From the NCBI GenBank assembly GCA_038141355.1, contig JAYQHX010000002.1, forward strand, positions 613,073 to 677,072: a stretch of DNA of 64,000 nt. Direction: 5' to 3'. A program made the translations under genes and the position numbers. The stretch's first letter is position 1; every line of letters starts with the position of its first letter. Source of the DNA: Methanobacteriota archaeon (lineage in GTDB: Archaea; Thermoplasmatota; Poseidoniia; Poseidoniales; Poseidoniaceae). Shown here one piece after another: positions 2-30,046 of the stretch. The notes beneath the pieces are model-generated. The model saw only the letters and a program-made list of their open reading frames with translations, did no database searches and had not been told where the DNA came from.

Positions 2-2068
2 CTTCACTGTTTAGTGACAAATAATGGGTACCAACATGCTCAATTTAGAGTACAATCCAACGTTTCCAACTTATCTTGGATGAATCCGAGTCTACCGATG
101 ATTAGGATCGATAGCGCTAATCCAAACCAACATGGAACTACCGTACTAATTCCTCCAATTCCAGGAGGAAATGTCACTGAAATGTGGATTAATCTGTCAA
201 TCCCAGCAGGATCCGATGTCCAACAACAGGTTTGGGAAATTTGGTGGACAGATGCTGGGGGAACTCAGTTAGGAGAACTTGGAAGAATCACAGCAGACAT
301 TGCGGTAACGGAGCAATATGGTGTCCATTTATCTTCAACTGCTCCTTTGATTGCTGCTACAATGATGCCTGGGGAGACAACAAACATTCCTTTCAAATTG
401 CAAAATGCAGGAAACAGAGTGGCTTCCTATGCGGTTACAGCAAATTTCCAAGATACTGAATGGTCCTATTTCATTACAGACAATAATGATTCAATCGTGC
501 AAATGCCGATACCACTCAACCGTGGAGAAGAAATCGAACTCAGATTGAATGTCACAGCACCATCCGACTCCTCACCTGGAGAAATGCCCTTCTCCCTTAG
601 AGCAGTTTGTCCGTCATGTGGGCAATCATTATTTGGAAACGATGTGATATCAAAGAAAATCGTAGTTCCAATTTATCGTTCAGTTGAGTTATCTGCTGAA
701 GAAACGGAACTTACTGCCCTATCAAATGGAGTGGCACGAGTAGTTTACATCGATTTGTTCAATAAAGGCAATTCTGATGAATCTTACACATTGGAATTGA
801 TGCAATCTAATTGGAGGCTTGAATCATATCTTTCAAGCGGAGAAACCTCTGTACTAGATGCCTGTGATGGAGAGACCACAATTGCATTGAACTTGCCAAT
901 GCCTATCGGTTTGGCACCAGGCCTTTACACTGCCACAATAGTTGCTAAGAATGTAGATGATGACCTTGTTAGAGACCAGATTGTAATATACATCGATGTT
1001 CAAGATACATCTGCAGTTTCAGTGTCTGACCAAGAAGCAGACCAATCATACATTCCAGGAGATGTAGCACAATCCATGAGATTCGAAGTCTTCAATCAAG
1101 GAAATAAGGCGGATAGATTCACTATGTCGATGAATTTGCCTGCTGGGATGAATGCTATGTTTGAACAACTTTCAGAAGGTAATGTTACCCCAATATTAGA
1201 GCCTGGTGAATCATACAACGTCACTGTTAAGTTTTCGTTTGAAGATGGAACAAATGGTCAACTATTGCTCAATGTAATCGCAACTAGTGTAAATGACCCG
1301 TCGGTCTCTAATTCAGGAAAGTGTACCTATCGAGTTGGTTCACAGAATTGGTTAAGGTTGATTTCGACAGAATCGACAATTATCGATGAAGCAGGTAGAT
1401 ACGAGGTAGTTGTGACTCTAAGGAATCAATACACAGAAGGCCAATCTGTTTCAATGTCTATCGACCAAAATGGGACAAACCGCTGGTATGGTTCATCAAT
1501 TGCTTCAACCGACAGAGAATTTTGGTTGACAGTTAATGGAGATCGTGAAGTGACAGTGATATTCGAAGTTCAAAGTTCAAGCTTGAAGAATCTTGAATCT
1601 GAATTCGTAGAAACTAGAGTCACTCTTTGGGCGATTTCAAATTCAGTTGAAGATGCCGCTTCCTTGGACATTCCAGTCACGCTAAAGAGAACATCTTCAG
1701 ATTCTCAGGATAATGTTCAATCCGATAGCTCAACCGATTGGGTTGGAATTGCTATTTGGGTTGTTGGTGGAGGAGTAATAGTAGCACTTCTTGGTGTTCT
1801 ATTAGTCGTGCTTAACTCCGGTGAAGAAGAAGAAGAAACCAATTGGCTGCAGGATGGCTATGAAGACAATATTTCTGCGACTTATGGTGCTGTAGCAGCA
1901 GCGCCTACGATTCCGGCCGCTGAGCCGATGAAATTTGTGCCTGAAATTGTTGAGCCGGCTCCTGTTCAGGCCAGTGGCCCACCACTACCCGCAAGTGGCC
2001 TACCAGAAGGATGGACTATGGAGCAGTGGCAACACTACGGGCAACAATGGTTGGACAGCCAGAACTGA
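2..2068 (+). CDS. Cell-surface (S-layer/adhesin-like) glycoprotein, 5' end probably outside the window. It has repeated Ig-like CARDB/NEW3-like modules, a C-terminal TM anchor and a cytoplasmic tail.
   Basis: The frame is open to the window edge (no in-frame stop before the GTG at 14). It has recurring beta-rich modules with N-x-G-N motifs (FKLQNAGNRVASY, DLFNKGNSDESY, FEVFNQGNKADRF) and many N-x-S/T sequons. The hydrophobic helix WVGIAIWVVGGGVIVALLGVLLVVL is followed by EEEEE and a Pro/Trp-rich tail. Confidence 0.6.
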   Translation, partial: LHCLVTNNGYQHAQFRVQSNVSNLSWMNPSLPMIRIDSANPNQHGTTVLIPPIPGGNVTEMWINLSIPAGSDVQQQVWEIWWTDAGGTQLGELGRITADIAVTEQYGVHLSSTAPLIAATMMPGETTNIPFKLQNAGNRVASYAVTANFQDTEWSYFITDNNDSIVQMPIPLNRGEEIELRLNVTAPSDSSPGEMPFSLRAVCPSCGQSLFGNDVISKKIVVPIYRSVELSAEETELTALSNGVARVVYIDLFNKGNSDESYTLELMQSNWRLESYLSSGETSVLDACDGETTIALNLPMPIGLAPGLYTATIVAKNVDDDLVRDQIVIYIDVQDTSAVSVSDQEADQSYIPGDVAQSMRFEVFNQGNKADRFTMSMNLPAGMNAMFEQLSEGNVTPILEPGESYNVTVKFSFEDGTNGQLLLNVIATSVNDPSVSNSGKCTYRVGSQNWLRLISTESTIIDEAGRYEVVVTLRNQYTEGQSVSMSIDQNGTNRWYGSSIASTDREFWLTVNGDREVTVIFEVQSSSLKNLESEFVETRVTLWAISNSVEDAASLDIPVTLKRTSSDSQDNVQSDSSTDWVGIAIWVVGGGVIVALLGVLLVVLNSGEEEEETNWLQDGYEDNISATYGAVAAAPTIPAAEPMKFVPEIVEPAPVQASGPPLPASGLPEGWTMEQWQHYGQQWLDSQN

Positions 2069-3801: not shown

Positions 3802-3865
3802 CAACAAACCTTCAAAGACTAAGTCTATGTCGTATAGATTGCTCAGCGTGAGCACTGGTGATATC

Positions 3866-4147
3866 ATGCCTACGGTCGCAAAGGTTTGGATTGAAGAAGA
3901 CTGTATCACGTGTGATGCATGTCAGGACATTTTGCCGGAAGTTTTCGAGGTCACTGATGACACTAGCAAAATCAAGGCTGAAGTCAGGGAAGACGGCTCT
4001 TTTGACAGGAACATTAGCCATTCTGCAATCAAGGCAGAGTTTAGAGTTGAATACAGCGAACTAATCGAAGAAGCAGCAGATGCATGTCCGGTTGAAATTA
4101 TCAAATTTGAATACGATGGGGGCAGTAACTGCCGAAGCACCAGTTGA
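3866..4147 (+). CDS. Small single-cluster ferredoxin (3Fe-4S/4Fe-4S type). The start is 3827 or, more likely, the ATG at 3866.
   Basis: It has the motif CITCDAC near the N-terminus and a distal C-P (ADACPVEII), typical of single-cluster ferredoxins. Confidence 0.7.
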   Translation: MPTVAKVWIEEDCITCDACQDILPEVFEVTDDTSKIKAEVREDGSFDRNISHSAIKAEFRVEYSELIEEAADACPVEIIKFEYDGGSNCRSTS

Positions 4148-5831
4148 AGCAGCAACAGAGGAAGTAGCTCCAGCAGCAGTGGTTGCATCTGTACCGAGCG
4201 CCGATGATGGAGTTCTTGCTGAGTTATTATCGGGCGATAGAAGCCTTGCAGTATTCTTTGGCTCACAAACAGGCAATGCCGCAGGACTCGCTGAAAAGAC
4301 GGCAAAGAAAGCTGCATCATATGGCTTGGATGCAAAAGTAATCGACATGGATGGATACGACCCAGCAAGTTTTGCTTCCAACAAGAGAGTGCTAATTATT
4401 ACCTCAACATGGGGAGAAGGCGAAATGCCGGATAATGCTGATAATTTATGGAATCAGACAGTCAGTGCAAAACCTGCTCTAGGCGGAGTGCATTACTCGG
4501 TATGTGCAATTGGGGATTCTTCCTATGATGAATTCTGTAAGGCCGGAACAGACTGGGATGGCAAGTTTTCAGAACTTGGCGCTAAATCGATTCAAGCCAT
4601 TCAATTGTGTGACGTTGATTATGAGCCACCTTGGCAGATTTGGGTCAATGAAGTCCTTCCAAGAATTGCATGTGTAGATTCTTCAGGTACTTTCCAAGAA
4701 GAACTACTTGAAGCAATGATTGCGTATGGAGTAGGAGATGTTGATGATGGTGCTGACACGGGTGACTTCACCCCGGGCATGATTGAGCAGCCAAATCTTT
4801 CAATGACATTGAGAATTTTCAGATACGATCCAATCAAGGCAGAATCAGGATACGATACAGTTGCAGTAGTACTCCCAGGTCATGCAACTCTAGAAGATGC
4901 ATTGTTAGCAGTGAAAAGAGATGTAGATGGCTCACTTGCATTCAGGAGCGGCGGCTCATGTGGTCAAAATCCGCTAACTGGTGTAAAGGCGAACGGCAGA
5001 ATCTTGCCTGCTGATACAACAAGGGTATGCGATTTAGTCAGCGAAGGTGGAACCTTAACAATAGAACCACTTCCAGGTTATGAAGTTCTCAAAGACCTAA
5101 TGGTTTCATACGAAAGGTTTGATGTTGCAAGGTCGAATTCTAAGCCTTGGATGGTAGCCGACCCAAGACAAGGAGAAAAGTTGCCAAACGGCTCACCTAT
5201 GGGAGTTATGAGTTCTGACGAAGCAACTTTCCTTCACTCACTAGCGGATGTAGGCTCTCTTCAGTTGGTAAATTCCATGTCTGATACATTCGATATAAAC
5301 GACGAATACAGTGGTCCAGGCATTGCTTTACAAAGATGGGTCAGAAGCCAAGATTCTCGTGCCGGTGATTCTCATATCAAGCAAATGTATGAATTGATGC
5401 AAGGCAAAGGTGGAGTTTGGGACGAAGCCGATATTTCTTCTATTGCTCGCCATGGAATCGATGGCTCACAAGCAGCGGATTCACTTTATGCAGCAAGATC
5501 TAGGCTACTTGCCGAATTCAAATTCTCAGGTAAATCTGGAAGACTAGTAAAGAATTATTCAAGGTCTGTCAAAATGTCAGGTAATGTGAATGAAACCACA
5601 TTATATCGTTCAGTTCTAGGTCCACTCGGGCTCGGTTCAAACCTGTTGAACGGTGTTTCATTGCGTATGATGTTAGGATTTACAAGAAATGGTGGCCCAA
5701 TGATGAGAGGATTCCAAGGCATGTTGGTTCCGCCAGCCGGTATTGGGAAGATTCCGGATATGTTCAATTCAAAGATTCACAATCATCATGAAGTTGTAGC
5801 AATCTTCAACGAATTGGATAGTAGGTTTTAG
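4116..5831 (+). CDS. Flavodoxin domain fused to an SdhB/FrdB-like domain that lacks the Fe-S cysteine ligands. The start is uncertain (4080/4116, or a fusion to the upstream ferredoxin).
   Basis: The FMN loop VFFGSQTGNAAGLAEK is present. The SdhB-like blocks are LRIFRYDP, LEDALLAVKRDVDGSLAFRSGGSCGQN, IEPLPGYEVLKDLMVSYERF, YSGPGIALQRWVRSQDSR. Confidence 0.7.
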   Translation: MGAVTAEAPVEAATEEVAPAAVVASVPSADDGVLAELLSGDRSLAVFFGSQTGNAAGLAEKTAKKAASYGLDAKVIDMDGYDPASFASNKRVLIITSTWGEGEMPDNADNLWNQTVSAKPALGGVHYSVCAIGDSSYDEFCKAGTDWDGKFSELGAKSIQAIQLCDVDYEPPWQIWVNEVLPRIACVDSSGTFQEELLEAMIAYGVGDVDDGADTGDFTPGMIEQPNLSMTLRIFRYDPIKAESGYDTVAVVLPGHATLEDALLAVKRDVDGSLAFRSGGSCGQNPLTGVKANGRILPADTTRVCDLVSEGGTLTIEPLPGYEVLKDLMVSYERFDVARSNSKPWMVADPRQGEKLPNGSPMGVMSSDEATFLHSLADVGSLQLVNSMSDTFDINDEYSGPGIALQRWVRSQDSRAGDSHIKQMYELMQGKGGVWDEADISSIARHGIDGSQAADSLYAARSRLLAEFKFSGKSGRLVKNYSRSVKMSGNVNETTLYRSVLGPLGLGSNLLNGVSLRMMLGFTRNGGPMMRGFQGMLVPPAGIGKIPDMFNSKIHNHHEVVAIFNELDSRF

Positions 5832-6701
5832 GTGATTAAGGTGGTCAAATATTCGTATTATCCAGGAAATGTGGCAAGACAATCTTCTAGAGAAGTAGAA
5901 GATACAATTCAGCCCCTCTGTAAAACTCTTGGAATCGAATTGATTGAAATCGTTGGATATAGCAGTGATGGAGGAAATATCATCCGCCAAGGAAACAGAG
6001 ATTTACAACTAGCACTGAATGCTAGAAATTTGGCACTAGCACAAGAAAACGGTCATGATATTATCACACCATGTGCATCAGCACAAGGAATTCTCTATGA
6101 ATCACTGAAAACATTTAGAGAAGACCCAATTGCTCTTGCTAAAGCAAATACAGTTATTTCAAAAACATCTAATCTAAGTCTAAATGCTAACGAAATTAGT
6201 ACTAGTCATCTACTTCACGTATTGGTAGATGAAATTGGTCTAGATAAAATCGAAGCTGCGGTTGTCAATCCATTGGATATGGATATAGCGTGCTACTACG
6301 GTCCACACATGCAGAGGGATGGAGCCTGTGGTGCTGACGATGCATGGAATCCAACCTACATGGAACAATTGATCACTGCTCTTGGAGGCAGACCTGTAGA
6401 ATACTCCTCCAAATGTGCAAGTGTTGGAAATCCATCTCTGCTATCATTAGGAGATTCTGTCATGAAAATGACTGCTAGAGTACTAAATGACGCAAAGAAA
6501 GCTGGGGCGCAAGTACTAGTATCCGCATGTACTCTATCACATTCCAATCTTGATTCCTATCAAAGCAAAGCAGGTAGAGTTGCAGGAAAAGATACTAATT
6601 TGCCAGTTGTTAACCTAACAGAAATAATCGCATTCGCTTTAGGACATTTCACTGATAGATTTGCACAGTTGCGAACCAGAGCAGTAATCATTGGGTCTTG
6701 A
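5832..6701 (+). CDS. HdrB/SdhE-like protein with two degenerate CCG-type cysteine-rich domains. The likely start is the GTG at 5841, after an AGGTGA.
   Basis: It has the two-repeat architecture of CCG proteins (YSYYPGN..., GYSSDGG, ITPCASAQ; then ACYYGPHM, KCASVG, SACTLSHSNL). Most motif cysteines are substituted. Confidence 0.6.
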   Translation: MIKVVKYSYYPGNVARQSSREVEDTIQPLCKTLGIELIEIVGYSSDGGNIIRQGNRDLQLALNARNLALAQENGHDIITPCASAQGILYESLKTFREDPIALAKANTVISKTSNLSLNANEISTSHLLHVLVDEIGLDKIEAAVVNPLDMDIACYYGPHMQRDGACGADDAWNPTYMEQLITALGGRPVEYSSKCASVGNPSLLSLGDSVMKMTARVLNDAKKAGAQVLVSACTLSHSNLDSYQSKAGRVAGKDTNLPVVNLTEIIAFALGHFTDRFAQLRTRAVIIGS

Positions 6702-9344
6702 TTACCCATGAAGGAATTTGAATAATTCGCTTGCTTGGCTTGAAGATACTCCTTCAATAGCAATCAATTCATCCAAGCCAAGCATACATAACCCCATGAT
6801 ATCATTGCAGTGATTCATAATGGATTTCGCAGTTTTAGGCCCAATACCTGGAAGGTTTGCAAGTATTTTCTCTCTACTTAATTTGACCTCATTTTCCCAT
6901 CTGTCAAGTAAATATCCAGCATTTTTTGATTCGCTAATCATAGCATTAATCTCTGATGCAGCAGCCCGAATACTATCTAATTCTGGATTTCTATTTTTGG
7001 CAGAAAACTTGTCCAATAATAGTTTCAAAATTTTTGCTTCACGTTTTGCAGCAACTGAAACAAATCTTGCAGTTTCTTCAATACCATTAGTCATCAATAC
7101 AGGCAACCCCAAATCTAGAGTTATCCAAGCCATAGCCCCCATTACAGCGTTTGGATGAATTCTGTCGCTTTCTATGGATTCGACAATCAATAAAGGGCGA
7201 ATTGCTGATGAAAATAATCCCTTAGCTTGTTTCAAAATTCTACCGTCGATGATTGAATCGATGAAATCGCGAGAACTTTTTCTTTCAATCAAGACACGGT
7301 CGCCTATTTTTATGTCCCCATATCTGAGGTGTTCAAATTTAATATCGTGGCCATTTAACTTGATTAACGATGGTAAAGTCGAATTAGATTCCCTATTGTC
7401 TATTACAATCAATTCTGATAATTTTGTACTAGTATCAATCTCATCGATTTCTAGATTAGTTTTTTCGATTATTCTGATTTCATCTAATCTATCGTTTTTT
7501 TTTGACCCATCCAAAACTGGATTCCACCAATCATCCTTTTGCTGTGGAATAAATTCGGCCAGTGATTTCTGATTTTGAGGGCGATTTGATGGTGTGTATT
7601 TTTCTTTTTTTGTCGCGTTTTCTGATTTTTCATCGCGCTTTTCAGAGATTTCTTTCTTAACTTCTAATCGAGCAGTTTCAGACAAGATGAATTCTTCTGC
7701 AGAAAGATTGTCAATTGAAAAATTAGCAAGCACATTTTCTTTAGGAGTAGACCTTTTTGGGAGTCTAGATTGACCTCGTAGTGTCTTTAGGGTTTTGTGC
7801 ATCGCAATCTCTCTATTCCGGGCAGCCATCTGAACATACTCGTCTCTAGTGTTTTGAGCAATTAGAACTTTGACCGAGCCATCGGTCTTCCTAGCGGTTC
7901 TCCCTCTTCTTTGAATAGACCTAATCGCACTAGGTACAGGCTCATAGAGTACCACGCAATCAGCAGCGGGCACATCTAATCCTTCTTCTCCGACACTTGT
8001 TGCTACAAGAACATTAATTTCACCTTCTCGAAATCTGTCCAATTGTTCAATTTGTTCTGATTGTTTCATTCCAAGTTGTGTTCCTTTACTTGCTTGGCCA
8101 ACAAATCTTCCGGGTTTGATTTTTTCATGTTTCAAACTGAAAATCAGGTTGTCAACAGTATCTCTATACTCTGTGAAAATTATTACTTTTCCATCATCTT
8201 CTAGACTCTCAAAGACTAATTGTTCTACTATTGAGGGTTTAGGATGTAATTCCTCCATTTCTTTACAGGTTTTGTAAAATTCTGAGACTTGAGGAAGGGA
8301 CAAGAATCTCTTAGTTTTACGATCTTTATCTTGTCTTGCCCTATCTAGGTACATTATTGCACATCGAAGTCCTTGTGTTTCTAGTAGGTCAATCAATCGG
8401 GTCAATCTTCGTAAGTCACTAATCCTTTTTGCAGCATCAAATCCTCTGACATCCCCTCTGTTTATTGCAGCACTAACCCTTCTCTGTGCTTCCTCGAGGG
8501 CAGCCGAAGTAACTCTTCCAGTATAAATTAAAAATCCAGCTCTTCGAAGGAACTCAACCTCTTCTTCTAACAATATTTTCAGTGGCATAATTATGTCAGA
8601 TAATGTATCTGGAATCATAATCCTATGTTCCTCAATCGACATCTCAGTGACATAGGGCTTTACCATCTCATCTTCTCTTTTTGTAATGTGAAGTCTTTCA
8701 ATTCCCAACCTTTGAACTATTTCAAGAACACTCGCTGCCTTTACACCAGGGGATGCGGTTGCAGCCAATACCTTACCGTGGTTTGAGGCTTGAAGGTACA
8801 AATCACCCAACTGAGCCATAGAGTTAGAACCTGTGGCATGATGTGCTTCATCACAGATCAATAGATCTATTTCAGAAAGTAAAATTCTACCACTCAATGC
8901 ATCATTCCGAATTACATGTGGCGTAGCCATTATTATCTTAGCATCCTTCCACAATGTTTCTCTTTTTTCAGGTCTTATCTGGCCTGTTAGTGTGATAATT
9001 TTCCCATCTTCTACATCAATAAATTCCTCAGCCATTCTTGCCTGTTGAGAGACAAGTCCTATTGTGGGAGCAACAAGGACAATTTTCCCATTACCTTCTA
9101 AATTCTCAGCCATAGCCATCCACTGAACAGCGGTTTTACCAAGGCCTGTTGGCATTACTAAGAGAGTAGATCCACTAAGGCATTCCTTTGCAGCGTCTAA
9201 CTGATATGCCCTAGCCTCGACTCCTGATTTGAGTCTTGGATGGCTTACAATCGGCTGCATGAAGTTAAAGTAAAGTCGGGGGTCAAGAGGATTTGCATTT
9301 TTTTTGACAATGAAACTGTTATGAAATAGTATAGAATTTAGCAA
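6702..9344 (-). CDS. hef: Hef: helicase-associated endonuclease for fork-structured DNA (SF2 DEAH helicase + ERCC4/XPF nuclease + HhH)
   Basis: It has Walker A-like MPTGLGKT, the DEAH box (LICDEAHHATG), helicase motif VI QRRGRTAR, the ERCC4 motif LIERKSSRDFIDSI and a C-terminal HhH (LPGIGPKTAKSI). Confidence 0.9.
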   Translation of the reverse strand: MLNSILFHNSFIVKKNANPLDPRLYFNFMQPIVSHPRLKSGVEARAYQLDAAKECLSGSTLLVMPTGLGKTAVQWMAMAENLEGNGKIVLVAPTIGLVSQQARMAEEFIDVEDGKIITLTGQIRPEKRETLWKDAKIIMATPHVIRNDALSGRILLSEIDLLICDEAHHATGSNSMAQLGDLYLQASNHGKVLAATASPGVKAASVLEIVQRLGIERLHITKREDEMVKPYVTEMSIEEHRIMIPDTLSDIIMPLKILLEEEVEFLRRAGFLIYTGRVTSAALEEAQRRVSAAINRGDVRGFDAAKRISDLRRLTRLIDLLETQGLRCAIMYLDRARQDKDRKTKRFLSLPQVSEFYKTCKEMEELHPKPSIVEQLVFESLEDDGKVIIFTEYRDTVDNLIFSLKHEKIKPGRFVGQASKGTQLGMKQSEQIEQLDRFREGEINVLVATSVGEEGLDVPAADCVVLYEPVPSAIRSIQRRGRTARKTDGSVKVLIAQNTRDEYVQMAARNREIAMHKTLKTLRGQSRLPKRSTPKENVLANFSIDNLSAEEFILSETARLEVKKEISEKRDEKSENATKKEKYTPSNRPQNQKSLAEFIPQQKDDWWNPVLDGSKKNDRLDEIRIIEKTNLEIDEIDTSTKLSELIVIDNRESNSTLPSLIKLNGHDIKFEHLRYGDIKIGDRVLIERKSSRDFIDSIIDGRILKQAKGLFSSAIRPLLIVESIESDRIHPNAVMGAMAWITLDLGLPVLMTNGIEETARFVSVAAKREAKILKLLLDKFSAKNRNPELDSIRAAASEINAMISESKNAGYLLDRWENEVKLSREKILANLPGIGPKTAKSIMNHCNDIMGLCMLGLDELIAIEGVSSSQASELFKFLHG

Positions 9345-9390
9345 TTGCCCCGTCCGCTCTATACAGCGTTCTCAACCGAACCACTCATAT

Positions 9391-24349: not shown

Positions 24350-25817
<1,468 letters not shown>

Positions 25818-25894: not shown

Positions 25895-28627
25895 TTACTT
25901 TTCATCGACGTACCAATATTTCTTGTTAGGCGATAATGGGCGCTTCATCCATAGAGGCCTTCTTTCACCTCGTGGATGGGTTTCTCTTTCTTTAGCCCAA
26001 GAATTCCACTTCTTGTAATATTCATGAGACTTATTCGTATCAACTTCTACGTCACCATATTCTTCGCCTTCCGCTGGAAGAGACAACTTGACTTTTTGCA
26101 ACCAGCAATGAGCTCCACTAATTGGATCTGGTTGAACAGCATGTGTGATGTTTTGATGTACACCGCCATCTCTCCAGAATAGGCGGTTTGTATCAGGGTC
26201 ATTTGATTCAAATGGTGTTACTCCTTCTATAGTCCTCATTCTCCATTTGCCATCGCCTCTGTCTTCAATAGACACTGTATTGGTCATCATGCGATTTCCA
26301 GCATCTTGTTTTCTTCTCCAGCGGCCAATGTGGTGAGAACATCCCACGATACCAGGTTTAATCGCCTCAGTCACCCAGACTTTATCGATAAACCAGCCAA
26401 TTTCCGTTTCAATTTTGATTAATCCTCCCTCAGTCACACCTAGTTTTTTGGCATCTGATGGATGGAGCCAAATAGGATTTTTATGTGCGATTTCCACCAG
26501 CCATTTTGCGTTAGCTGACCTCGAGTGTATATGCATTGGCAGTCTGAAATTCGGCAGCAAGCAGAATTCGTTTTCCCCAGTCAAATTTTCTGGGTGGACA
26601 TGAGATTTTATTTTGTAATGTGGTATTGCGTGTTCGGGATAACCGAATTCAATCATCGTAGGCGAATAGAATTCTTGTTTCCCTGAAGGAGTTGGCCATC
26701 CTTCTTTTTCGTATTTTTTATATGTACTTTCTTCAATCAAAAAAGCACCGTGTCTTCTCATGTATTCTAACTCGGAGAGTTCTTCTTCCTTGGCTTTCTC
26801 AGTTAAACCAGGTACTCTCTCAAAGATGTACTGATAGTAATCATCGAGATTCATAGTATCTCCATCTCTGTATGGTGACATGAAATATTGCTTGATTCCT
26901 AGGCTTCCATCAGGATCTATTCTAAGGCTCAGTTCATTCCAGAACTCGTCTTCTTCCCAGACTTCTCCAGGGTTTACCTCGTGAGTGAATTCTACTTCCT
27001 TGCCTTGTCTTCTTTGGAACTCTCGCAAAACCGGTTGTCTGAATGCAACCCACTTCCCTGATGAAGTCGCGTATGAGTTGATATCGTGCCTTTCGCTTGC
27101 GTGTCCCATAGGAATAACGTAATCTGCAAAGAATGCAGTCTCGTTCCAAGTCGGAGTCATTGCGATATGGCATCCGACCGCTTCTTCGTTTTGCAACATT
27201 TCAATCCACGAAAAGCCATCCGGATAAGTCCAAACCGGATTAAACACCCTCGTAAAATAAACATCCATAGTTCCTCTTCCTTCCTTAACAAGATGTGGAA
27301 GAATATGGCTCATTTCGAAATGAGCAAGAGTATATTCCGGTGGGAAATGCAATTCATTCCAGCCTTCCGGAGCCGGAGGCTCATTTGGCAATTCAGGCTT
27401 GAATTTTGACCATGAATTAGGTGCAGTGCCACCTTCAGTTCCAACTGAACCGGTTAGTACATTTAGGAAATGGAGACTTCTAGAGACCTGCCATCCACCT
27501 AAATTGCCGATAGATGCAGCCCTCCATACGTGTGATGATAATCTACTTCCAGCATTTGCGACGATTCTTCCAGTTTCGATGACCTGTTCTACAGGAATTC
27601 TGCATTCTTTTGATGCGAATTCAGGAGTATATTGAGCATATTCTTGTTTCAGGATTCCTATGAAGTTGTCAAAAGTTTCCTCTGAATTTGGATGAACTTC
27701 TTGTAAGTACTGTTGCCAATTTACTTGTGTTTCCATGAATTCTCTATCATATAGCCCTTCATCCAAGATAATCTTGGCCCAACTCAGGAAAAGTGCAGTT
27801 TCACTACCTGGCCAGGTTGGAATCCAGTGGTCAGCCATAGATGCAGTGTTAGATAGTCTAGGGTCAACAACAATCAATTTAGCGCCATCCATCATTCCTT
27901 CGAGAATTCTTTGTGCGTGAGGATTGAAGTAATGACCGGTTTCAAGGTGAGATGAACATAGTAGGATTACCTTTGCATTACTATGGTCGGGACTTGGTCT
28001 GTCATGGTGATGCCAGATTGCATAACCTGTTCTAGCTCCTGCACTACATATGTTGGTATGTGAATTATGTCCGTCTACTCCCCACGCTTTGAGTACACGA
28101 TTCGTATACCCTTCATGACCAGGTCTTCCAACGTGGTAAACTACTCTATCTCGAGCGCCAGTTTCTAGCGATGCTCTGATTTTGTTTGCTATATCATCGA
28201 GAACTTCTTCCCAAGAAACTCTCTCCCAGCCACCTTCACCTCTTTTTCCAACTCGCTTTAGCGGGTAAAGAATTCTCTCAGTATCATTAATTTGGTTAAT
28301 TGTAGCAGGTCCTTTAGCACAGTTTCTTCCTCTACTTCCGGGGTGGTTAGGATTTCCCTCAAAACGAGACACTTCGCCGGTTTCTTTATCTACATATGCT
28401 AGTAAACCACATGCGGATTCACAATTAAAACAAGTAGTAGGGACCAAGGAGAAGTTTCTTTCAACCTGCTTGGGCCATGCTTGAGCATCTAGTTCTGTGT
28501 GATTATCCCAATCATCCATGGTTGGGTATTTTCTCAAAGGCCCATCTGCGCCTTTGTGAGGCTTTTTATCGATATTTGGAATAATTCGCAATTTCTGTGC
28601 TATATTTTCAATAAATGTCCTTGCCAT
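25895..28627 (-). CDS. Molybdopterin (bis-MGD) oxidoreductase catalytic subunit, DMSO-reductase superfamily (Psr/Phs/Ttr-like). The substrate is unknown.
   Basis: 910 aa with the N-terminal 4Fe-4S motif CFNCESAC...RNCAKG and a candidate Mo-ligand Cys in HTNICSAGARTG. No RR twin-arginine motif is visible. GAGGTGA lies upstream. Confidence 0.85.
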   Translation of the reverse strand: MARTFIENIAQKLRIIPNIDKKPHKGADGPLRKYPTMDDWDNHTELDAQAWPKQVERNFSLVPTTCFNCESACGLLAYVDKETGEVSRFEGNPNHPGSRGRNCAKGPATINQINDTERILYPLKRVGKRGEGGWERVSWEEVLDDIANKIRASLETGARDRVVYHVGRPGHEGYTNRVLKAWGVDGHNSHTNICSAGARTGYAIWHHHDRPSPDHSNAKVILLCSSHLETGHYFNPHAQRILEGMMDGAKLIVVDPRLSNTASMADHWIPTWPGSETALFLSWAKIILDEGLYDREFMETQVNWQQYLQEVHPNSEETFDNFIGILKQEYAQYTPEFASKECRIPVEQVIETGRIVANAGSRLSSHVWRAASIGNLGGWQVSRSLHFLNVLTGSVGTEGGTAPNSWSKFKPELPNEPPAPEGWNELHFPPEYTLAHFEMSHILPHLVKEGRGTMDVYFTRVFNPVWTYPDGFSWIEMLQNEEAVGCHIAMTPTWNETAFFADYVIPMGHASERHDINSYATSSGKWVAFRQPVLREFQRRQGKEVEFTHEVNPGEVWEEDEFWNELSLRIDPDGSLGIKQYFMSPYRDGDTMNLDDYYQYIFERVPGLTEKAKEEELSELEYMRRHGAFLIEESTYKKYEKEGWPTPSGKQEFYSPTMIEFGYPEHAIPHYKIKSHVHPENLTGENEFCLLPNFRLPMHIHSRSANAKWLVEIAHKNPIWLHPSDAKKLGVTEGGLIKIETEIGWFIDKVWVTEAIKPGIVGCSHHIGRWRRKQDAGNRMMTNTVSIEDRGDGKWRMRTIEGVTPFESNDPDTNRLFWRDGGVHQNITHAVQPDPISGAHCWLQKVKLSLPAEGEEYGDVEVDTNKSHEYYKKWNSWAKERETHPRGERRPLWMKRPLSPNKKYWYVDEK

Positions 28628-28636
28628 AAAATCACC

Positions 28637-30046
28637 TCACAACAATGGCTCCAATTGAGGTCTTTCAATAACGTGATGCCCATGGACTAGAATAATTATC
28701 AAACCGATAATTCCAGTCATTATAGGTAATAGTCCGCCAACGATTATCGCTAGAGTAGCACCGCCAATTAAGGCGGTCTCGATTAAAAATTTGAGGGGAA
28801 GTAATCTATCTTTAGACCACGATCGTCCCTTTGCTTGCTGTAGCAACCAAGCGGTGTAGACACCGGTTAATGCTGCAATTGGTATTCCTGCGTAAGCCAA
28901 GTATTTCAGATAAGTTTCATCTAAATCCAGTATAACTACTGCGAGAGATACCGCTAGAATTCCACCGTATGCTGCAAGAATATATGCTCCTTTTACAAGC
29001 CAAGAATTCCAATTGGGTCGTAGCATCACATACAGGAATCGTTCAGGTCTATCTAAGTCCTTGATTAGAAGTAATCCAGTTATAGTCATGAAACCTAATC
29101 CAACTCCTATGACTGGAATCCATAATTCGTCCATATTAGGTAAATATCCTGTGAGCCACATAATCATAGCAACCATGTATGTTCCTGCTGCAATTCCTTT
29201 GGTCCAGATGTATGCGCTGACTTCCCATCCCCATAGAATACCTTTGGATGGTGCATCGTATGCTCTCTTCGCATTCGGTGAGTTGTCAGCTAATTTTTGA
29301 GCAACGTCACGAATTATTGCTTGGTCTCGAGGATTTGCATCTTTTGCTTTCATCTCCAAGGCTAATTGAACTAGCATTGAGTGTTCATCGGCAGCTCCCA
29401 TCCTTTCGCTGGCATATTTTGCATAATGTCCAACACCTGCTGCTTGTTCATTCCACATTCCTTCAGCGGTTTTATCAGTGGCTAGAGGATTTAACATATC
29501 GTCAGATGTATCTAGATAGAATACATTTGGTATAGTTCCAGCTTCGGGCTTACGAACCTTTGTTTCATTTTCTGAAATTAGAATTGACAGATTAGAGGTT
29601 TCATCATCTAAATCTCCACTAACAATTGCTTCAACTGGACAAACAATTACGCAAGCAGGTTCATACGAATTTTCGATTCTATGTGCACAATAATTACACT
29701 TTGCGGCAGTACCTGAATCTGGATTGATGTATAGAGCGTCATATGGACATGCTTGCATGCAAGATTTACATCCAATACATCTGTCATCGTCGAAATCTAC
29801 AATTCCATCATCTCTTGTGAATAGGGCTGTTGTTGGACAAATTGTCGTGCATGGTGCATCTTCACAGTGATTACATCTATGAACACTAAATTCTCGATTC
29901 GAATTTGGATATTCTCCAGTTTCGATATATTTTACGTGAGTTCTATTTACTCCGACAGGAACATCATGCTCAGATTTACAGGCAACTGTACAGGCGTGAC
30001 ATCCAATACATTTTCTGTTATCGATGGCAAAGCCATAATTTACCAT
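28637..30046 (-). CDS. Fusion of a four-cluster 4Fe-4S ferredoxin subunit (DmsB/PsrB/NrfC-like) to a polytopic NrfD/PsrC-like membrane domain
   Basis: Four Cys groups are present (CIGCHACTVAC, CNHCEDAPCTTICP, CIGCKSCMQACP, CNYC...CVIVCP). A ~100-aa linker follows, then about 5-6 hydrophobic helices beginning with WGWEVSAYIWTKGIAAG. Confidence 0.8.
   Translation of the reverse strand: MVNYGFAIDNRKCIGCHACTVACKSEHDVPVGVNRTHVKYIETGEYPNSNREFSVHRCNHCEDAPCTTICPTTALFTRDDGIVDFDDDRCIGCKSCMQACPYDALYINPDSGTAAKCNYCAHRIENSYEPACVIVCPVEAIVSGDLDDETSNLSILISENETKVRKPEAGTIPNVFYLDTSDDMLNPLATDKTAEGMWNEQAAGVGHYAKYASERMGAADEHSMLVQLALEMKAKDANPRDQAIIRDVAQKLADNSPNAKRAYDAPSKGILWGWEVSAYIWTKGIAAGTYMVAMIMWLTGYLPNMDELWIPVIGVGLGFMTITGLLLIKDLDRPERFLYVMLRPNWNSWLVKGAYILAAYGGILAVSLAVVILDLDETYLKYLAYAGIPIAALTGVYTAWLLQQAKGRSWSKDRLLPLKFLIETALIGGATLAIIVGGLLPIMTGIIGLIIILVHGHHVIERPQLEPLL

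What the first reader, a model, noticed from the sequence alone, without database searches (positions are those of the whole stretch)
3827..6701. Ferredoxin + flavodoxin::SdhB-like + HdrB/SdhE-like module in which nearly all Fe-S cysteine ligands are missing
Three co-directional, tightly packed ORFs look like the electron-transfer half of a type-E (archaeal SdhABEF-like) succinate:quinone oxidoreductase. The redox-cofactor ligands, however, are gone.
- The 583-aa protein has a canonical flavodoxin FMN loop (FFGSQTGNAAG) followed by blocks that align with SdhB/FrdB: LRIFRYDP, LEDALLAVKRDVDGSLAFRSGG-SCGQN, IEPLPGYEVLKDLMVSYERF, KPWM, YSGPGIALQRWVRSQDSR.
- Where SdhB has CxxxxCxxC...C, CxxCxxCxxxCP and CxxxxxCxxxCP, this protein has SGGSCGQN, SLADVGSLQLVNSMSDTF and GVWDEADISSIARHGIDG. 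At most 1-2 of about 11 ligand cysteines remain.
- The next ORF has the two-repeat layout of CCG-domain proteins (HdrB/SdhE/GlpC). Its motifs read PGN, SSDGG, PCASAQ / GPH, KCASVG, ACTLSHS in place of PGC, CCG, CxxC.

A cofactor-stripped SdhB/SdhE pair wired to a flavodoxin and a real ferredoxin is not an arrangement I know to be described. It could be a pseudo-enzyme scaffold or a repurposed FMN-dependent redox module.
Basis: partly seen in the sequence, partly recalled or inferred. Interest (0 to 1): 0.8.

Follow-up and report, generated by a model that had tools for sequence, protein, structure and literature searches.

The report
Cluster-less SdhB/HdrB pair with tethered carriers
All marine group II archaea examined carry a strongly conserved two-gene module, descended from the iron-sulfur half of a succinate dehydrogenase, that has lost nearly every iron-sulfur binding cysteine and carries fused ferredoxin/flavodoxin domains instead; its function is unknown and undescribed.

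Summary

**Homology.** Residues 240-583 of the 583-aa ORF match long (type-E) SdhB proteins end to end (hhalign E 1.6e-41). All 12 Fe-S ligand columns are non-Cys in 83/83 orthologues. The next gene has the HdrB/SdhE fold (phmmer 9e-32, TM 0.78). It keeps only 2 invariant Cys of 10.

**Correction.** The "ferredoxin ORF" is not a separate gene. The window has G5 at 4118-4122, where 99%-identical genomes have 7 nt. Every orthologue encodes one Fdx-Fld-SdhB* protein of about 660 aa.

**Conservation.** The pair was found in 318 GTDB species genomes. The best 80 are almost all labelled Poseidoniales or unresolved archaea. Synteny is fixed: thermosome > fusion > HdrB* > Hef. dN/dS is about 0.03.

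**Other findings.**
- The N-terminal carrier is a swappable cassette (57 Fdx-Fld, 17 Fld-Fld).
- Sister lineages still keep one complete CCG motif, so cluster loss was stepwise.
- No sdhA lies within reach in any family locus.

**Best reading.** This is a functional, iron-economised redox module. The SdhB*/HdrB* core acts as a cofactor-free docking platform, and the tethered carriers move the electrons. The partner and substrate are unknown.

**Verdict.** New variant of a known kind; interest 0.7.

The parts
3827..4117 (+). N-terminal single-cluster [4Fe-4S] ferredoxin domain of the fusion gene (residues 1-97 of the restored 668-aa protein). It carries CITCDAC...ACP.
   Evidence: Pfam Fer4_13, 41.6 bits against cut-off 24.5. 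The motif is invariant in orthologues. In P0001 and 57 other loci it is in frame with the flavodoxin domain.
4118..4122 (+). G5 homopolymer, 2 nt shorter than in near-identical genomes. It causes the apparent split into a 'ferredoxin ORF' and a '583-aa ORF'.
   Evidence: L001 and L083 have G7 and L082 has GGAGGGG at this site, all with an intact 668-aa ORF. The other indels between these genomes are also homopolymer-length differences.
4123..4250 (+). Ala/Glu/Val/Pro-rich linker between the ferredoxin and flavodoxin domains. The sequence suggests a flexible tether.
   Evidence: Sequence AVTAEAPVEAATEEVAPAAVVASVPSADDG. pLDDT is below 50 in the model. Length and sequence vary among orthologues.
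4251..4625 (+). CysJ/CPR-type flavodoxin (FMN) domain with intact FMN loops FGSQTGNA, STWGEGEMP and GDSSYDEFC.
   Evidence: Pfam Flavodoxin_1, 105 bits, E 4e-30. CysJ FMN domain 1ykg_A, 8e-19. The three loops are near-invariant across 98 domains.
4797..5120 (+). SdhB* N-terminal domain (2Fe-2S ferredoxin-like fold). The four cluster ligands are replaced by G292, N297, T300 and D312.
   Evidence: Pfam Fer2_3, 40 bits against cut-off 27. Alignment to real SdhBs. Ligand columns are non-Cys in 83/83 orthologues.
5121..5828 (+). SdhB* C-terminal (HdrC-like) domain plus the type-E C-terminal extension. Eight ligand columns are replaced (V391, L394, V397, S401, E449, I452, I455, G459). The last ~110 residues are the most conserved part of the SdhB*-derived region and contain a family-specific 22-24-aa Gly/Pro-rich insertion (nt 5673-5744).
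   Evidence: hhalign E 1.6e-41 to real long SdhBs, to the last residues, with an unaligned insertion. Invariant columns. Ligand table.
5830..5836 (+). Shine-Dalgarno-like AGGTGAT overlapping the TAG stop (5829-5831) of the fusion gene, 4 nt upstream of GTG 5841. This suggests translational coupling of the two genes.
   Evidence: Sequence read. Most listed orthologues are 286 aa and start MVKYSYYPGN, which corresponds to the GTG at 5841.
5841..6701 (+). HdrB*/SdhE*: a two-CCG-domain protein with the HdrB fold that has lost 7-8 of 10 cluster cysteines. C81 and C233 are invariant. The longest ORF starts at 5832; the likely true start is 5841.
   Evidence: phmmer to HdrB 9sfi_C, 8.8e-32. NCBIfam MFR SdhE, 4.5e-35, below cut-off. 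Foldseek TM 0.78. Column counts in 84 orthologues. dN/dS 0.032.

Best explanation
**Shown.** The locus is a two-gene operon.
- Gene 1 encodes one protein: [4Fe-4S] ferredoxin, a linker, an FMN flavodoxin, a second linker, and an SdhB-derived body (SdhB*) with no Fe-S ligand cysteine. In this window it is split by a 2-nt homopolymer indel, most likely technical.
- Gene 2 encodes an HdrB/SdhE-fold protein (HdrB*) that keeps 2 invariant Cys of 10.
- Both descend from the SdhB/SdhE pair of a type-E succinate:quinone oxidoreductase.
- Both are core genes of Poseidoniales under strong purifying selection.
- The carrier domains keep their cofactor motifs intact.

**Inferred.**
- SdhB* and HdrB* still form the tight SdhB-SdhE (HdrC-HdrB-like) heterodimer, but as a cofactor-free platform. 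Both are peripheral proteins with no TM helix.
- Electrons no longer run through a buried Fe-S wire. The flexibly tethered ferredoxin and flavodoxin domains carry them, swinging like the FMN domain of CysJ/CPR.
- They would shuttle between an external donor (for example a 2-oxoacid:ferredoxin oxidoreductase or an SdhA-like flavoprotein) and an acceptor site. That site would be formed by the remodelled HdrB* pocket (N13, D46, C81, C233, S236, H237) and the hyper-conserved SdhB* C-terminal arm.
- The acceptor is most likely a quinone or a disulfide.
- The history is stepwise iron economy:
  1. Five clusters in the type-E ancestor.
  2. One or two ferredoxin clusters plus one CCG cluster in sister lineages.
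  3. One cluster in the Fdx-Fld forms.
  4. None in the Fld-Fld forms.
For: - **Homology and Cys loss:**
- **Single fused gene:**
- **Distribution:** 318 GTDB species genomes carry it. Order is invariant across 85 loci: thermosome > fusion > HdrB* > Hef.
- **Selection:** dN/dS 0.03.
- **Carrier motifs:** invariant CxxCxxC..CP and three FMN loops.
- **Linkers:** low complexity and low pLDDT.
- **Coupling:** the stop codon overlaps the SD of gene 2.
- **No TM helix:** maximum Kyte-Doolittle 19-aa window 1.35.
- **Stepwise loss:** L086, L087 and L088 (ribosomal protein L3 only 55-56% identical) have Fdx-SdhB* or Fdx-Fdx-SdhB* with no SdhB ligands. The CCG proteins of L086 and L087 (L088 encodes the same SdhB* protein as L087) keep the full first motif FPGC..AACCGAG..TPCATCQG and a degenerate second motif.
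- **Carrier swapping:** 57 Fdx-Fld, 17 Fld-Fld, 2 Fdx-Fdx, 1 Fdx. Fld-Fld is scattered over the SdhB* tree, and the Fld1 modules are each other's nearest relatives across deep clades.
- **Ancestry:** the nearest real SdhBs lie in sdhA-sdhB-CCG operons.
Against: - No partner, donor or acceptor is identified.
- No sdhA or other redox enzyme is in the 64-kb window or in any flank of up to 10 kb.
- The heterodimer and the swinging-carrier model are analogy, not data. The full-length AlphaFold model is poor (pLDDT 46), and no multimer prediction was possible.
- A platform without cofactors is not obviously needed for electron transfer. The extreme conservation of the C-terminal arm could reflect a different, non-redox role.
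- The iron-economy narrative is correlative. No link between Fld-Fld alleles and low-iron habitats was tested.
Confidence: 0.5

Rival explanations
1. It is the working electron-transfer arm of MGII complex II. SdhB*/HdrB* dock on SdhA as in a type-E SQR. The tethered FMN (and Fdx) replace the three SdhB clusters and the SdhE clusters as the path from FAD to quinone, giving a nearly iron-free succinate dehydrogenase.
For: - Ancestry from type-E SdhB/SdhE, with the SdhB fold retained end to end.
- IMG names HdrB* 'succinate dehydrogenase cytochrome b subunit'.
- The MGII core-function table of Tully 2019 lists sdhA, sdhB and a single sdhC cluster. A search of the paper's held supplementary files for 'sdhD' found nothing. 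HdrB* may therefore be the only 'anchor' MGII has.
Against: - The same table lists a separate single sdhB gene cluster in 90-92% of genomes, besides 'cysJ' (probably this fusion) in 99-100%. A conventional SdhB therefore probably exists.
- sdhA is never adjacent in the 89 family loci, whereas real type-E operons are sdhA-sdhB-CCG.
- I could not retrieve the MGII sdhA/sdhB locus.
Confidence: 0.15
2. It is a non-catalytic pseudoenzyme. The SdhB*/HdrB* body has a structural, regulatory or assembly role, for example tethering ferredoxin/flavodoxin near the membrane or near another complex, or sensing redox state. It has no substrate chemistry of its own.
For: - Complete ligand loss with the fold preserved.
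- Strong conservation of surface-forming C-terminal segments rather than of a recognisable active site.
- Housekeeping neighbourhood: thermosome, Hef, ribosomal-protein operon.
Against: - Two symmetric cysteines (the first Cys of each CxxC) and the polar replacements at former ligand positions are invariant in 84 orthologues. This suggests a maintained pocket rather than a mere scaffold.
- The basal relatives still keep one full cluster motif, implying catalysis was ancestral.
Confidence: 0.15
3. HdrB* still binds a metal or cofactor of another kind in the remodelled pocket. Candidates are a mononuclear Zn/Fe site or a small cluster using C81, C233, H237 and D46, or C30 and C166. The module would then be less 'cofactor-stripped' than the sequence suggests.
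For: - C81 and C233 are invariant; C30 is Cys in 77/84 and C166 in 71/84; H237 and D46 are invariant.
- Sulfolobus SdhE was reported to hold an isolated Zn site with S3(O/N)1 coordination besides its cluster (PMC2754724).
Against: - Only two Cys are invariant, too few for a cubane or non-cubane cluster.
- C30 and C166 are replaced in 7 and 13 orthologues.
- No model coordinates were available to test the geometry.
Confidence: 0.1
4. It is a decaying pseudogene pair, or the cysteine loss is a sequencing artefact.
For: The window carries a frameshift inside gene 1.
Against: - The frameshift is a 2-nt homopolymer difference unique to this assembly.
- The Cys-less state is identical in 83-84 independent assemblies.
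- dN/dS is 0.03, comparable to the flavodoxin domain and approaching the thermosome.
- The family is present in 318 species genomes.
Confidence: 0.02

Closest known systems
Type-E succinate:quinone oxidoreductase SdhB/SdhE (Sulfolobus/Acidianus SdhABEF; Campylobacter/Wolinella MFR SdhABE)
   Same: - Same two folds in the same gene order (SdhB then CCG protein).
- SdhB* aligns with long SdhBs to the last residue, including the C-terminal extension.
- HdrB* matches the MFR SdhE model over 265 of 282 positions.
- Both proteins lack TM helices, like the monotopic type-E anchor (PMC2754724).
   Different: - 0 of 12 SdhB ligand Cys and 2-3 of 10 CCG Cys remain.
- No adjacent sdhA and no sdhF.
- Ferredoxin and flavodoxin domains are fused N-terminally.
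- There is a 22-24-aa insertion in the C-terminal arm.
- Scores are far below NCBIfam cut-offs (121.6 against 500; 43.3 against 88).
Heterodisulfide reductase HdrC/HdrB
   Same: - Best solved-structure match of HdrB* (9e-32; TM 0.78).
- From family knowledge, the SdhB C-domain is HdrC-like and wraps the CCG subunit.
   Different: - HdrB holds two non-cubane [4Fe-4S] clusters on 10 Cys. Here 7-8 of them are gone.
- There is no HdrA.
- The organism is an aerobic heterotroph.
Thiol:fumarate reductase TfrB (SdhB-like plus CCG domains in one chain)
   Same: It combines an SdhB-like and an HdrB-like module. There is a weak hit to PRK06259.
   Different: - TfrB keeps all clusters and works with TfrA.
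- Here the modules are separate genes, cluster-less, and fused to carrier domains.
CysJ / cytochrome P450 reductase FMN domain
   Same: - Best matches of the flavodoxin domain (TIGR01931 3e-36; 1ykg_A 8e-19).
- In those enzymes the FMN domain is a tethered shuttle. This is the analogy used for the proposed mechanism.
   Different: - There is no FAD/NADPH (FNR-like) domain.
- The KEGG/RAST names 'cysJ' and 'sulfite reductase flavoprotein' given to this gene are misannotations.
Ferredoxin/flavodoxin (petF/isiB) iron-sparing substitution in marine microbes
   Same: Alternative use of an Fe-S carrier or an FMN carrier in the same role: 57 Fdx-Fld against 17 Fld-Fld architectures.
   Different: The alternatives are here allelic 5' cassettes of one fusion gene, not two regulated genes. 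No link to iron supply has been shown.

Membership tests
SdhB/FrdB iron-sulfur subunit (TIGR00384; PF13085 plus Fer4 C-domain) | Sequence/profile homology over both domains | tested here: met
   hhalign probability 100%, E 1.6e-41, 308 columns. Fer2_3 scores 40 bits against cut-off 27.
SdhB/FrdB iron-sulfur subunit (TIGR00384; PF13085 plus Fer4 C-domain) | 11-12 cysteine ligands for [2Fe-2S], [4Fe-4S] and [3Fe-4S]/[4Fe-4S] | tested here: not met
   0 of 12 ligand columns are Cys in the window and in 83/83 orthologues.
SdhB/FrdB iron-sulfur subunit (TIGR00384; PF13085 plus Fer4 C-domain) | Reaches the curated family score | tested here: not met
   TIGR00384 scores 43.3 bits against 88. PRK12576 scores 51.6 against 344.
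Type-E SQR (SdhABEF) | Encoded with, and working with, an SdhA flavoprotein | tested here: not met
   No FAD_binding_2/Succ_DH_flav_C gene lies in the 64-kb window or in the flanks of the 89 family loci. Real long SdhBs do sit next to sdhA. An SdhA elsewhere in the genome could not be examined.
CCG-domain proteins HdrB/SdhE (PF02754; TIGR03288; NF042965) | HdrB fold and full-length sequence homology | tested here: met
   phmmer 8.8e-32 to 9sfi_C. Foldseek TM 0.78, E 1e-18. Pfam CCG scores 24.5 against 20.6.
CCG-domain proteins HdrB/SdhE (PF02754; TIGR03288; NF042965) | Two CX(31-39)CCX(35-36)CXXC motifs | tested here: not met
   3 of 10 Cys remain in the window and 2 of 10 are invariant in 84 orthologues. 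Scores are 121.6 against 500 and 115.3 against 345.
Flavodoxin (PF00258) | Family score and FMN-binding loops | tested here: met
   105.2 bits against 25. FGSQTGNA, STWGEGEMP and GDxSYDEFC are near-invariant in 98 domains. FMN binding itself was not tested.
Single-cluster [4Fe-4S] ferredoxin (PF13370) | Family score and CxxCxxC...CP | tested here: met
   41.6 bits against 24.5. CITCDAC and ACP are invariant.
CysJ / diflavin reductase | FMN domain plus FAD/NADPH-binding FNR-like domain | tested here: not met
   TIGR01931 matches only profile positions 58-203, with 125 bits against cut-off 668. Pfam finds no FAD_binding_1 or NAD_binding_1.
Pseudogene | Disrupted frame shared by relatives, and relaxed selection | tested here: not met
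   The frameshift occurs only in this assembly. dN/dS is 0.030-0.032.

The most novel reading that the evidence does not exclude
Poseidoniales replaced the buried five-cluster Fe-S wire of a type-E complex-II-like enzyme by tethered mobile carriers, one [4Fe-4S] plus FMN, or two FMN and no iron at all. The module is still a respiratory oxidoreductase: either succinate:quinone together with SdhA, or ferredoxin/flavodoxin:quinone. The Fdx or Fld 5' cassette is exchanged between lineages as an adaptation to iron scarcity.
Probability: 0.2. Interest if true: 0.9.

Novelty: new variant of a known kind. Interest (0 to 1): 0.7.

Why it matters
Marine group II archaea are among the most abundant archaea in the surface ocean and have no cultured member.

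This gene pair appears to be part of their core genome. It was found in 318 GTDB species genomes and is under selection approaching that on the thermosome. Yet databases call it 'cysJ', 'SDH cytochrome b', 'HdrB iron-sulfur subunit' or 'hypothetical'. Some of these names imply cofactors it cannot bind, and metabolic reconstructions that count it as sulfite reductase or as an SDH anchor are wrong.

If the module is a redox enzyme, it would be a natural case of an Fe-S electron wire replaced by swinging flavodoxin/ferredoxin domains. Intermediates are preserved in sister lineages, which gives a direct handle on how enzymes shed iron in an iron-poor ocean.

It might also bear on two open points:
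- how aerobic archaea return ferredoxin electrons to the respiratory chain;
- what anchors MGII complex II.

If it is a pseudoenzyme, it is an unusually well-conserved one derived from respiratory Fe-S proteins.

Tried and rejected
- **Full-length AlphaFold model of the 668-aa fusion.** pLDDT was 46 and the SdhB* part was unusable, so no fold search was run on it.
- **First genome scan with a 9-sequence alignment.** It failed because no stretch was conserved enough. It was repeated with 4 sequences.
- **Finding the canonical MGII sdhA/sdhB locus.**
  - I looked up 20 clusters: 14 real SdhB representatives and 6 family members.
  - I fetched two contexts. One is a 31%-GC non-MGII organism (its pterin-binding enzyme is 41% identical to the window's). 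The other is bacterial (trigger factor, ClpXP).
  - The question stays open and rests on the Tully 2019 supplement only.
- **Metagenome scan with the half-degenerate CCG protein.** It found only one more member of the basal lineage. The other hits were ordinary sdhA-sdhB-sdhE or hdrC-like/CCG operons. No new context appeared.
- **Literature searches.** Six searches for a prior description found none. A seventh, aimed at the MGII sdh genes, was badly posed and returned only human SDH papers.
- **Programmed frameshift or phase variation at the G-run.** Rejected, because the run is not conserved (L082 has GGAGGGG) and all relatives are in frame.
- **Pseudogene and sequencing-error readings.** Rejected.
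- **Membrane-integral anchor.** Rejected, because there is no hydrophobic 19-aa window above 1.35.

Full report
**1. What is in the window**

Three + strand ORFs are present as described: 3827-4147 (106 aa), 4080-5831 (583 aa) and 5832-6701 (289 aa).

Family assignments:
- The first ORF is a single-cluster ferredoxin (Pfam Fer4_13, E 2e-10).
- The second has a flavodoxin domain (E 4e-30, residues 58-182) and an SdhB N-terminal Fer2_3 domain (E 4e-10, residues 243-347).
- The third has a CCG domain.
- NCBIfam SdhB models match residues 241-448 (E 1e-13). MFR SdhE and HdrB models match the third ORF over its whole length (E 4.5e-35 and 3e-33). All are far below the curated cut-offs.
- Solved HdrB chains match the third ORF at 9e-32.
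- An AlphaFold model of it (pLDDT 74) superposes on HdrB with TM 0.78.

**2. The ferredoxin is not a separate gene**

The closest homologue (P0001, 99% identical) is a single 668-aa protein containing ferredoxin, flavodoxin and the SdhB-like part.

- The window has G5 at 4118-4122.
- Genomes 98.8-99.2% identical at the DNA level have G7 (L001, L083) or GGAGGGG (L082) there, with an uninterrupted ORF.
- The other indels among these genomes are also homopolymer-length differences: G5/G6 at 9277 and T9/T8 at 7495.
- The split is therefore most probably technical. The run is not conserved, so a programmed slip is unlikely.
- The HdrB-like gene probably starts at GTG 5841 (most listed orthologues are 286 aa and begin MVKY). 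An AGGTGAT Shine-Dalgarno sequence overlaps the upstream stop codon.
- The locus is thus a tightly coupled two-gene operon.

**3. Cysteine loss**

*SdhB-like part.* A search of 1.84 billion representative proteins found about a dozen full-length family clusters. After a wide E-value gap came real SdhBs of 300-350 aa.

- Alignment with those, and a profile-profile comparison (probability 100%, E 1.6e-41, 308 columns), shows residues 240-583 are colinear with long SdhBs to the last residue.
- This includes the C-terminal extension typical of SdhBs that pair with CCG subunits. There is one family-specific Gly/Pro-rich insertion.
- All 12 ligand columns are non-Cys in the window and in 83/83 orthologues. 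No column of this region is Cys in even half of them.
- Several replacements are themselves invariant: D312, S401, E449, G459.

*HdrB-like protein.* Of its ten cysteines only C81 and C233 are invariant. Each is the first Cys of a CxxC motif. N13, D46, S236 and H237 are invariant replacements or neighbours.

**4. Functional, not decaying**

- A scan of one genome per GTDB species found relatives in 318 genomes. The 80 best are nearly all labelled Poseidoniales, Poseidoniaceae, Thalassarchaeaceae or unresolved (Methanobacteriota, Euryarchaeota, Thermoplasmatota) archaea. One record is titled Rhodobiaceae bacterium but has the same archaeal synteny. The set includes the original MG-II chromosome CM001443.1.
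- Gene order is invariant: S-layer-like protein > thermosome > fusion gene > HdrB* > Hef (opposite strand) > L3 ribosomal operon.
- Median pairwise dN/dS (Nei-Gojobori, pairs with 0.1<dS<1.5) is 0.030 for SdhB*, 0.032 for HdrB*, 0.048 for the flavodoxin domain and 0.015 for the thermosome.
- The carrier domains keep their cofactor motifs without exception: CITCDAC...ACP, FGSQTGNA, STWGEGEMP, GDxSYDEFC.

**5. Evolutionary trajectory**

- The nearest cluster-bearing SdhBs sit in sdhA-sdhB-CCG operons, that is type-E SQR operons.
- Three loci from lineages outside Poseidoniales (L086-L088) show the same synteny. Their ribosomal protein L3 is 55-56% identical to the window's, against 73-83% within the order.
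- These loci carry Fdx-SdhB* or Fdx-Fdx-SdhB*, with no flavodoxin.
- In them SdhB* is already Cys-less. Yet the CCG proteins of L086 and L087 keep a complete first motif (FPGC...AACCGAG...TPCATCQG) and a degenerate second one (YYGAPM, RSVGFPS, SACPLSH). L088 encodes the same SdhB* protein as L087.
- Such flavodoxin-less forms are rare.
- Cluster loss was therefore stepwise, and the flavodoxin was added in Poseidoniales.

**6. A swappable carrier cassette**

Among complete loci the architectures are:

| Architecture | Loci |
|---|---|
| Fdx-Fld-SdhB* | 57 |
| Fld-Fld-SdhB* | 17 |
| Fdx-Fdx-SdhB* | 2 |
| Fdx-SdhB* | 1 |

- Fld-Fld forms are scattered through the SdhB* tree.
- Their N-terminal Fld modules are each other's nearest relatives across deep clades, rather than relatives of the internal Fld of the same protein.
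- The 5' module thus behaves as an exchangeable Fdx-or-Fld cassette. Predicted iron content would be 4 Fe or 0 Fe per heterodimer.

**7. Partner and function**

- No SdhA-like gene is in the 64-kb window or in the flanks (up to 10 kb) of the 89 family loci.
- Both proteins lack TM helices.
- In the core-function table of Tully 2019, sdhA, one sdhB cluster (90-92% of genomes), one sdhC cluster and 'cysJ' (99-100%) are listed. A search of the paper's held supplementary files for 'sdhD' found nothing.
- IMG names HdrB* with the sdhC term, and RAST-style annotation calls the fusion 'sulfite reductase flavoprotein'. The fusion is therefore probably the 'cysJ' and HdrB* probably the 'sdhC' of those tables, and a conventional SdhB probably exists elsewhere. 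This is inference. I could not retrieve that locus.

**8. Mechanism**

Best-supported reading (confidence 0.5):
- SdhB* and HdrB* form a cofactor-free heterodimeric platform inherited from SdhB-SdhE / HdrC-HdrB.
- The tethered Fdx and Fld domains do the electron transfer, as the FMN domain does in CysJ/CPR.
- The acceptor site is formed by the remodelled HdrB* pocket and the hyper-conserved C-terminal arm of SdhB*.

Shown: ancestry, ligand loss, fusion, conservation, selection, and intact carrier motifs.

Inferred: the heterodimer, carrier mobility, the donor and the acceptor.

Rivals:
- It is the iron-free electron arm of MGII complex II (0.15).
- It is a non-catalytic scaffold (0.15).
- HdrB* holds another metal site (0.10).
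- It is a pseudogene or artefact (refuted).

**9. Novelty**

- Pereira et al. 2019 (PMC6741140) noted these two genes as conserved neighbours of the ribosomal-protein operon, under wrong names.
- No paper in the searched library mentions the fusion architecture, the cysteine loss or a function.
- No Pfam or NCBIfam model covers residues 350-583.
- I class it as a new variant of a known kind: a cluster-less derivative of type-E SdhB/SdhE with fused carriers.

Noticed in passing
window 4118-4122, 7495, 9277: All indels between this window and 98.8-99.2%-identical genomes are homopolymer-length differences (G5 against G7, T9 against T8, G5 against G6). The one at 9277 lies near the 5' end of the Hef-like gene (880-aa ORF here, 865 aa in L082). 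The assembly may carry homopolymer errors elsewhere.
   Followed up: partly
window 24350-25817 (+): A complete archaeal 16S rRNA gene (Rfam SSU_rRNA_archaea, 1478 bits). It stands alone between secY and a molybdopterin oxidoreductase and explains the GC spike at 24-26 kb. No 23S or 5S rRNA was reported in the window.
   Followed up: partly
window 25895-30046 (-): A molybdopterin oxidoreductase (910 aa, with a Fe4S4 domain) followed by a fused 4Fe-4S dicluster/NrfD-like membrane protein (469 aa). This is a Psr/DMSO-reductase-like respiratory module. The organism therefore keeps other iron-rich enzymes.
   Followed up: no
L004, L010, L015, L018-L021, L026, L039, L041, L044, L053, L057, L060, L071, L078, L080 (about nt 8850-9350 in most): In 17 species genomes the ferredoxin domain is replaced by a second flavodoxin domain. 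These Fld1 modules are most similar to one another across deep clades, which suggests recombinational exchange of the 5' cassette.
   Followed up: partly
L086 7490-9943: In the 3.0-Mb, 69%-GC basal lineage a PLDc_2 (phospholipase-D-like) gene of 817 aa is inserted between the thermosome and the Fdx-SdhB* gene. It is the only break of the otherwise fixed synteny.
   Followed up: no
window 14-2068 (+): A 684-aa protein with no Pfam hit and a C-terminal hydrophobic segment. It is conserved in position upstream of the thermosome in nearly all loci but evolves fast (39-85% identity). It may be a surface or S-layer-like protein.
   Followed up: no
L089 8107-11634: A 31%-GC marine contig carries a complete type-E sdhA-sdhB-sdhE operon next to malate dehydrogenase. 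Its first CCG motif reads SCTG (one Cys of the CC pair missing), so partial CCG degeneration also occurs in otherwise canonical operons.
   Followed up: no
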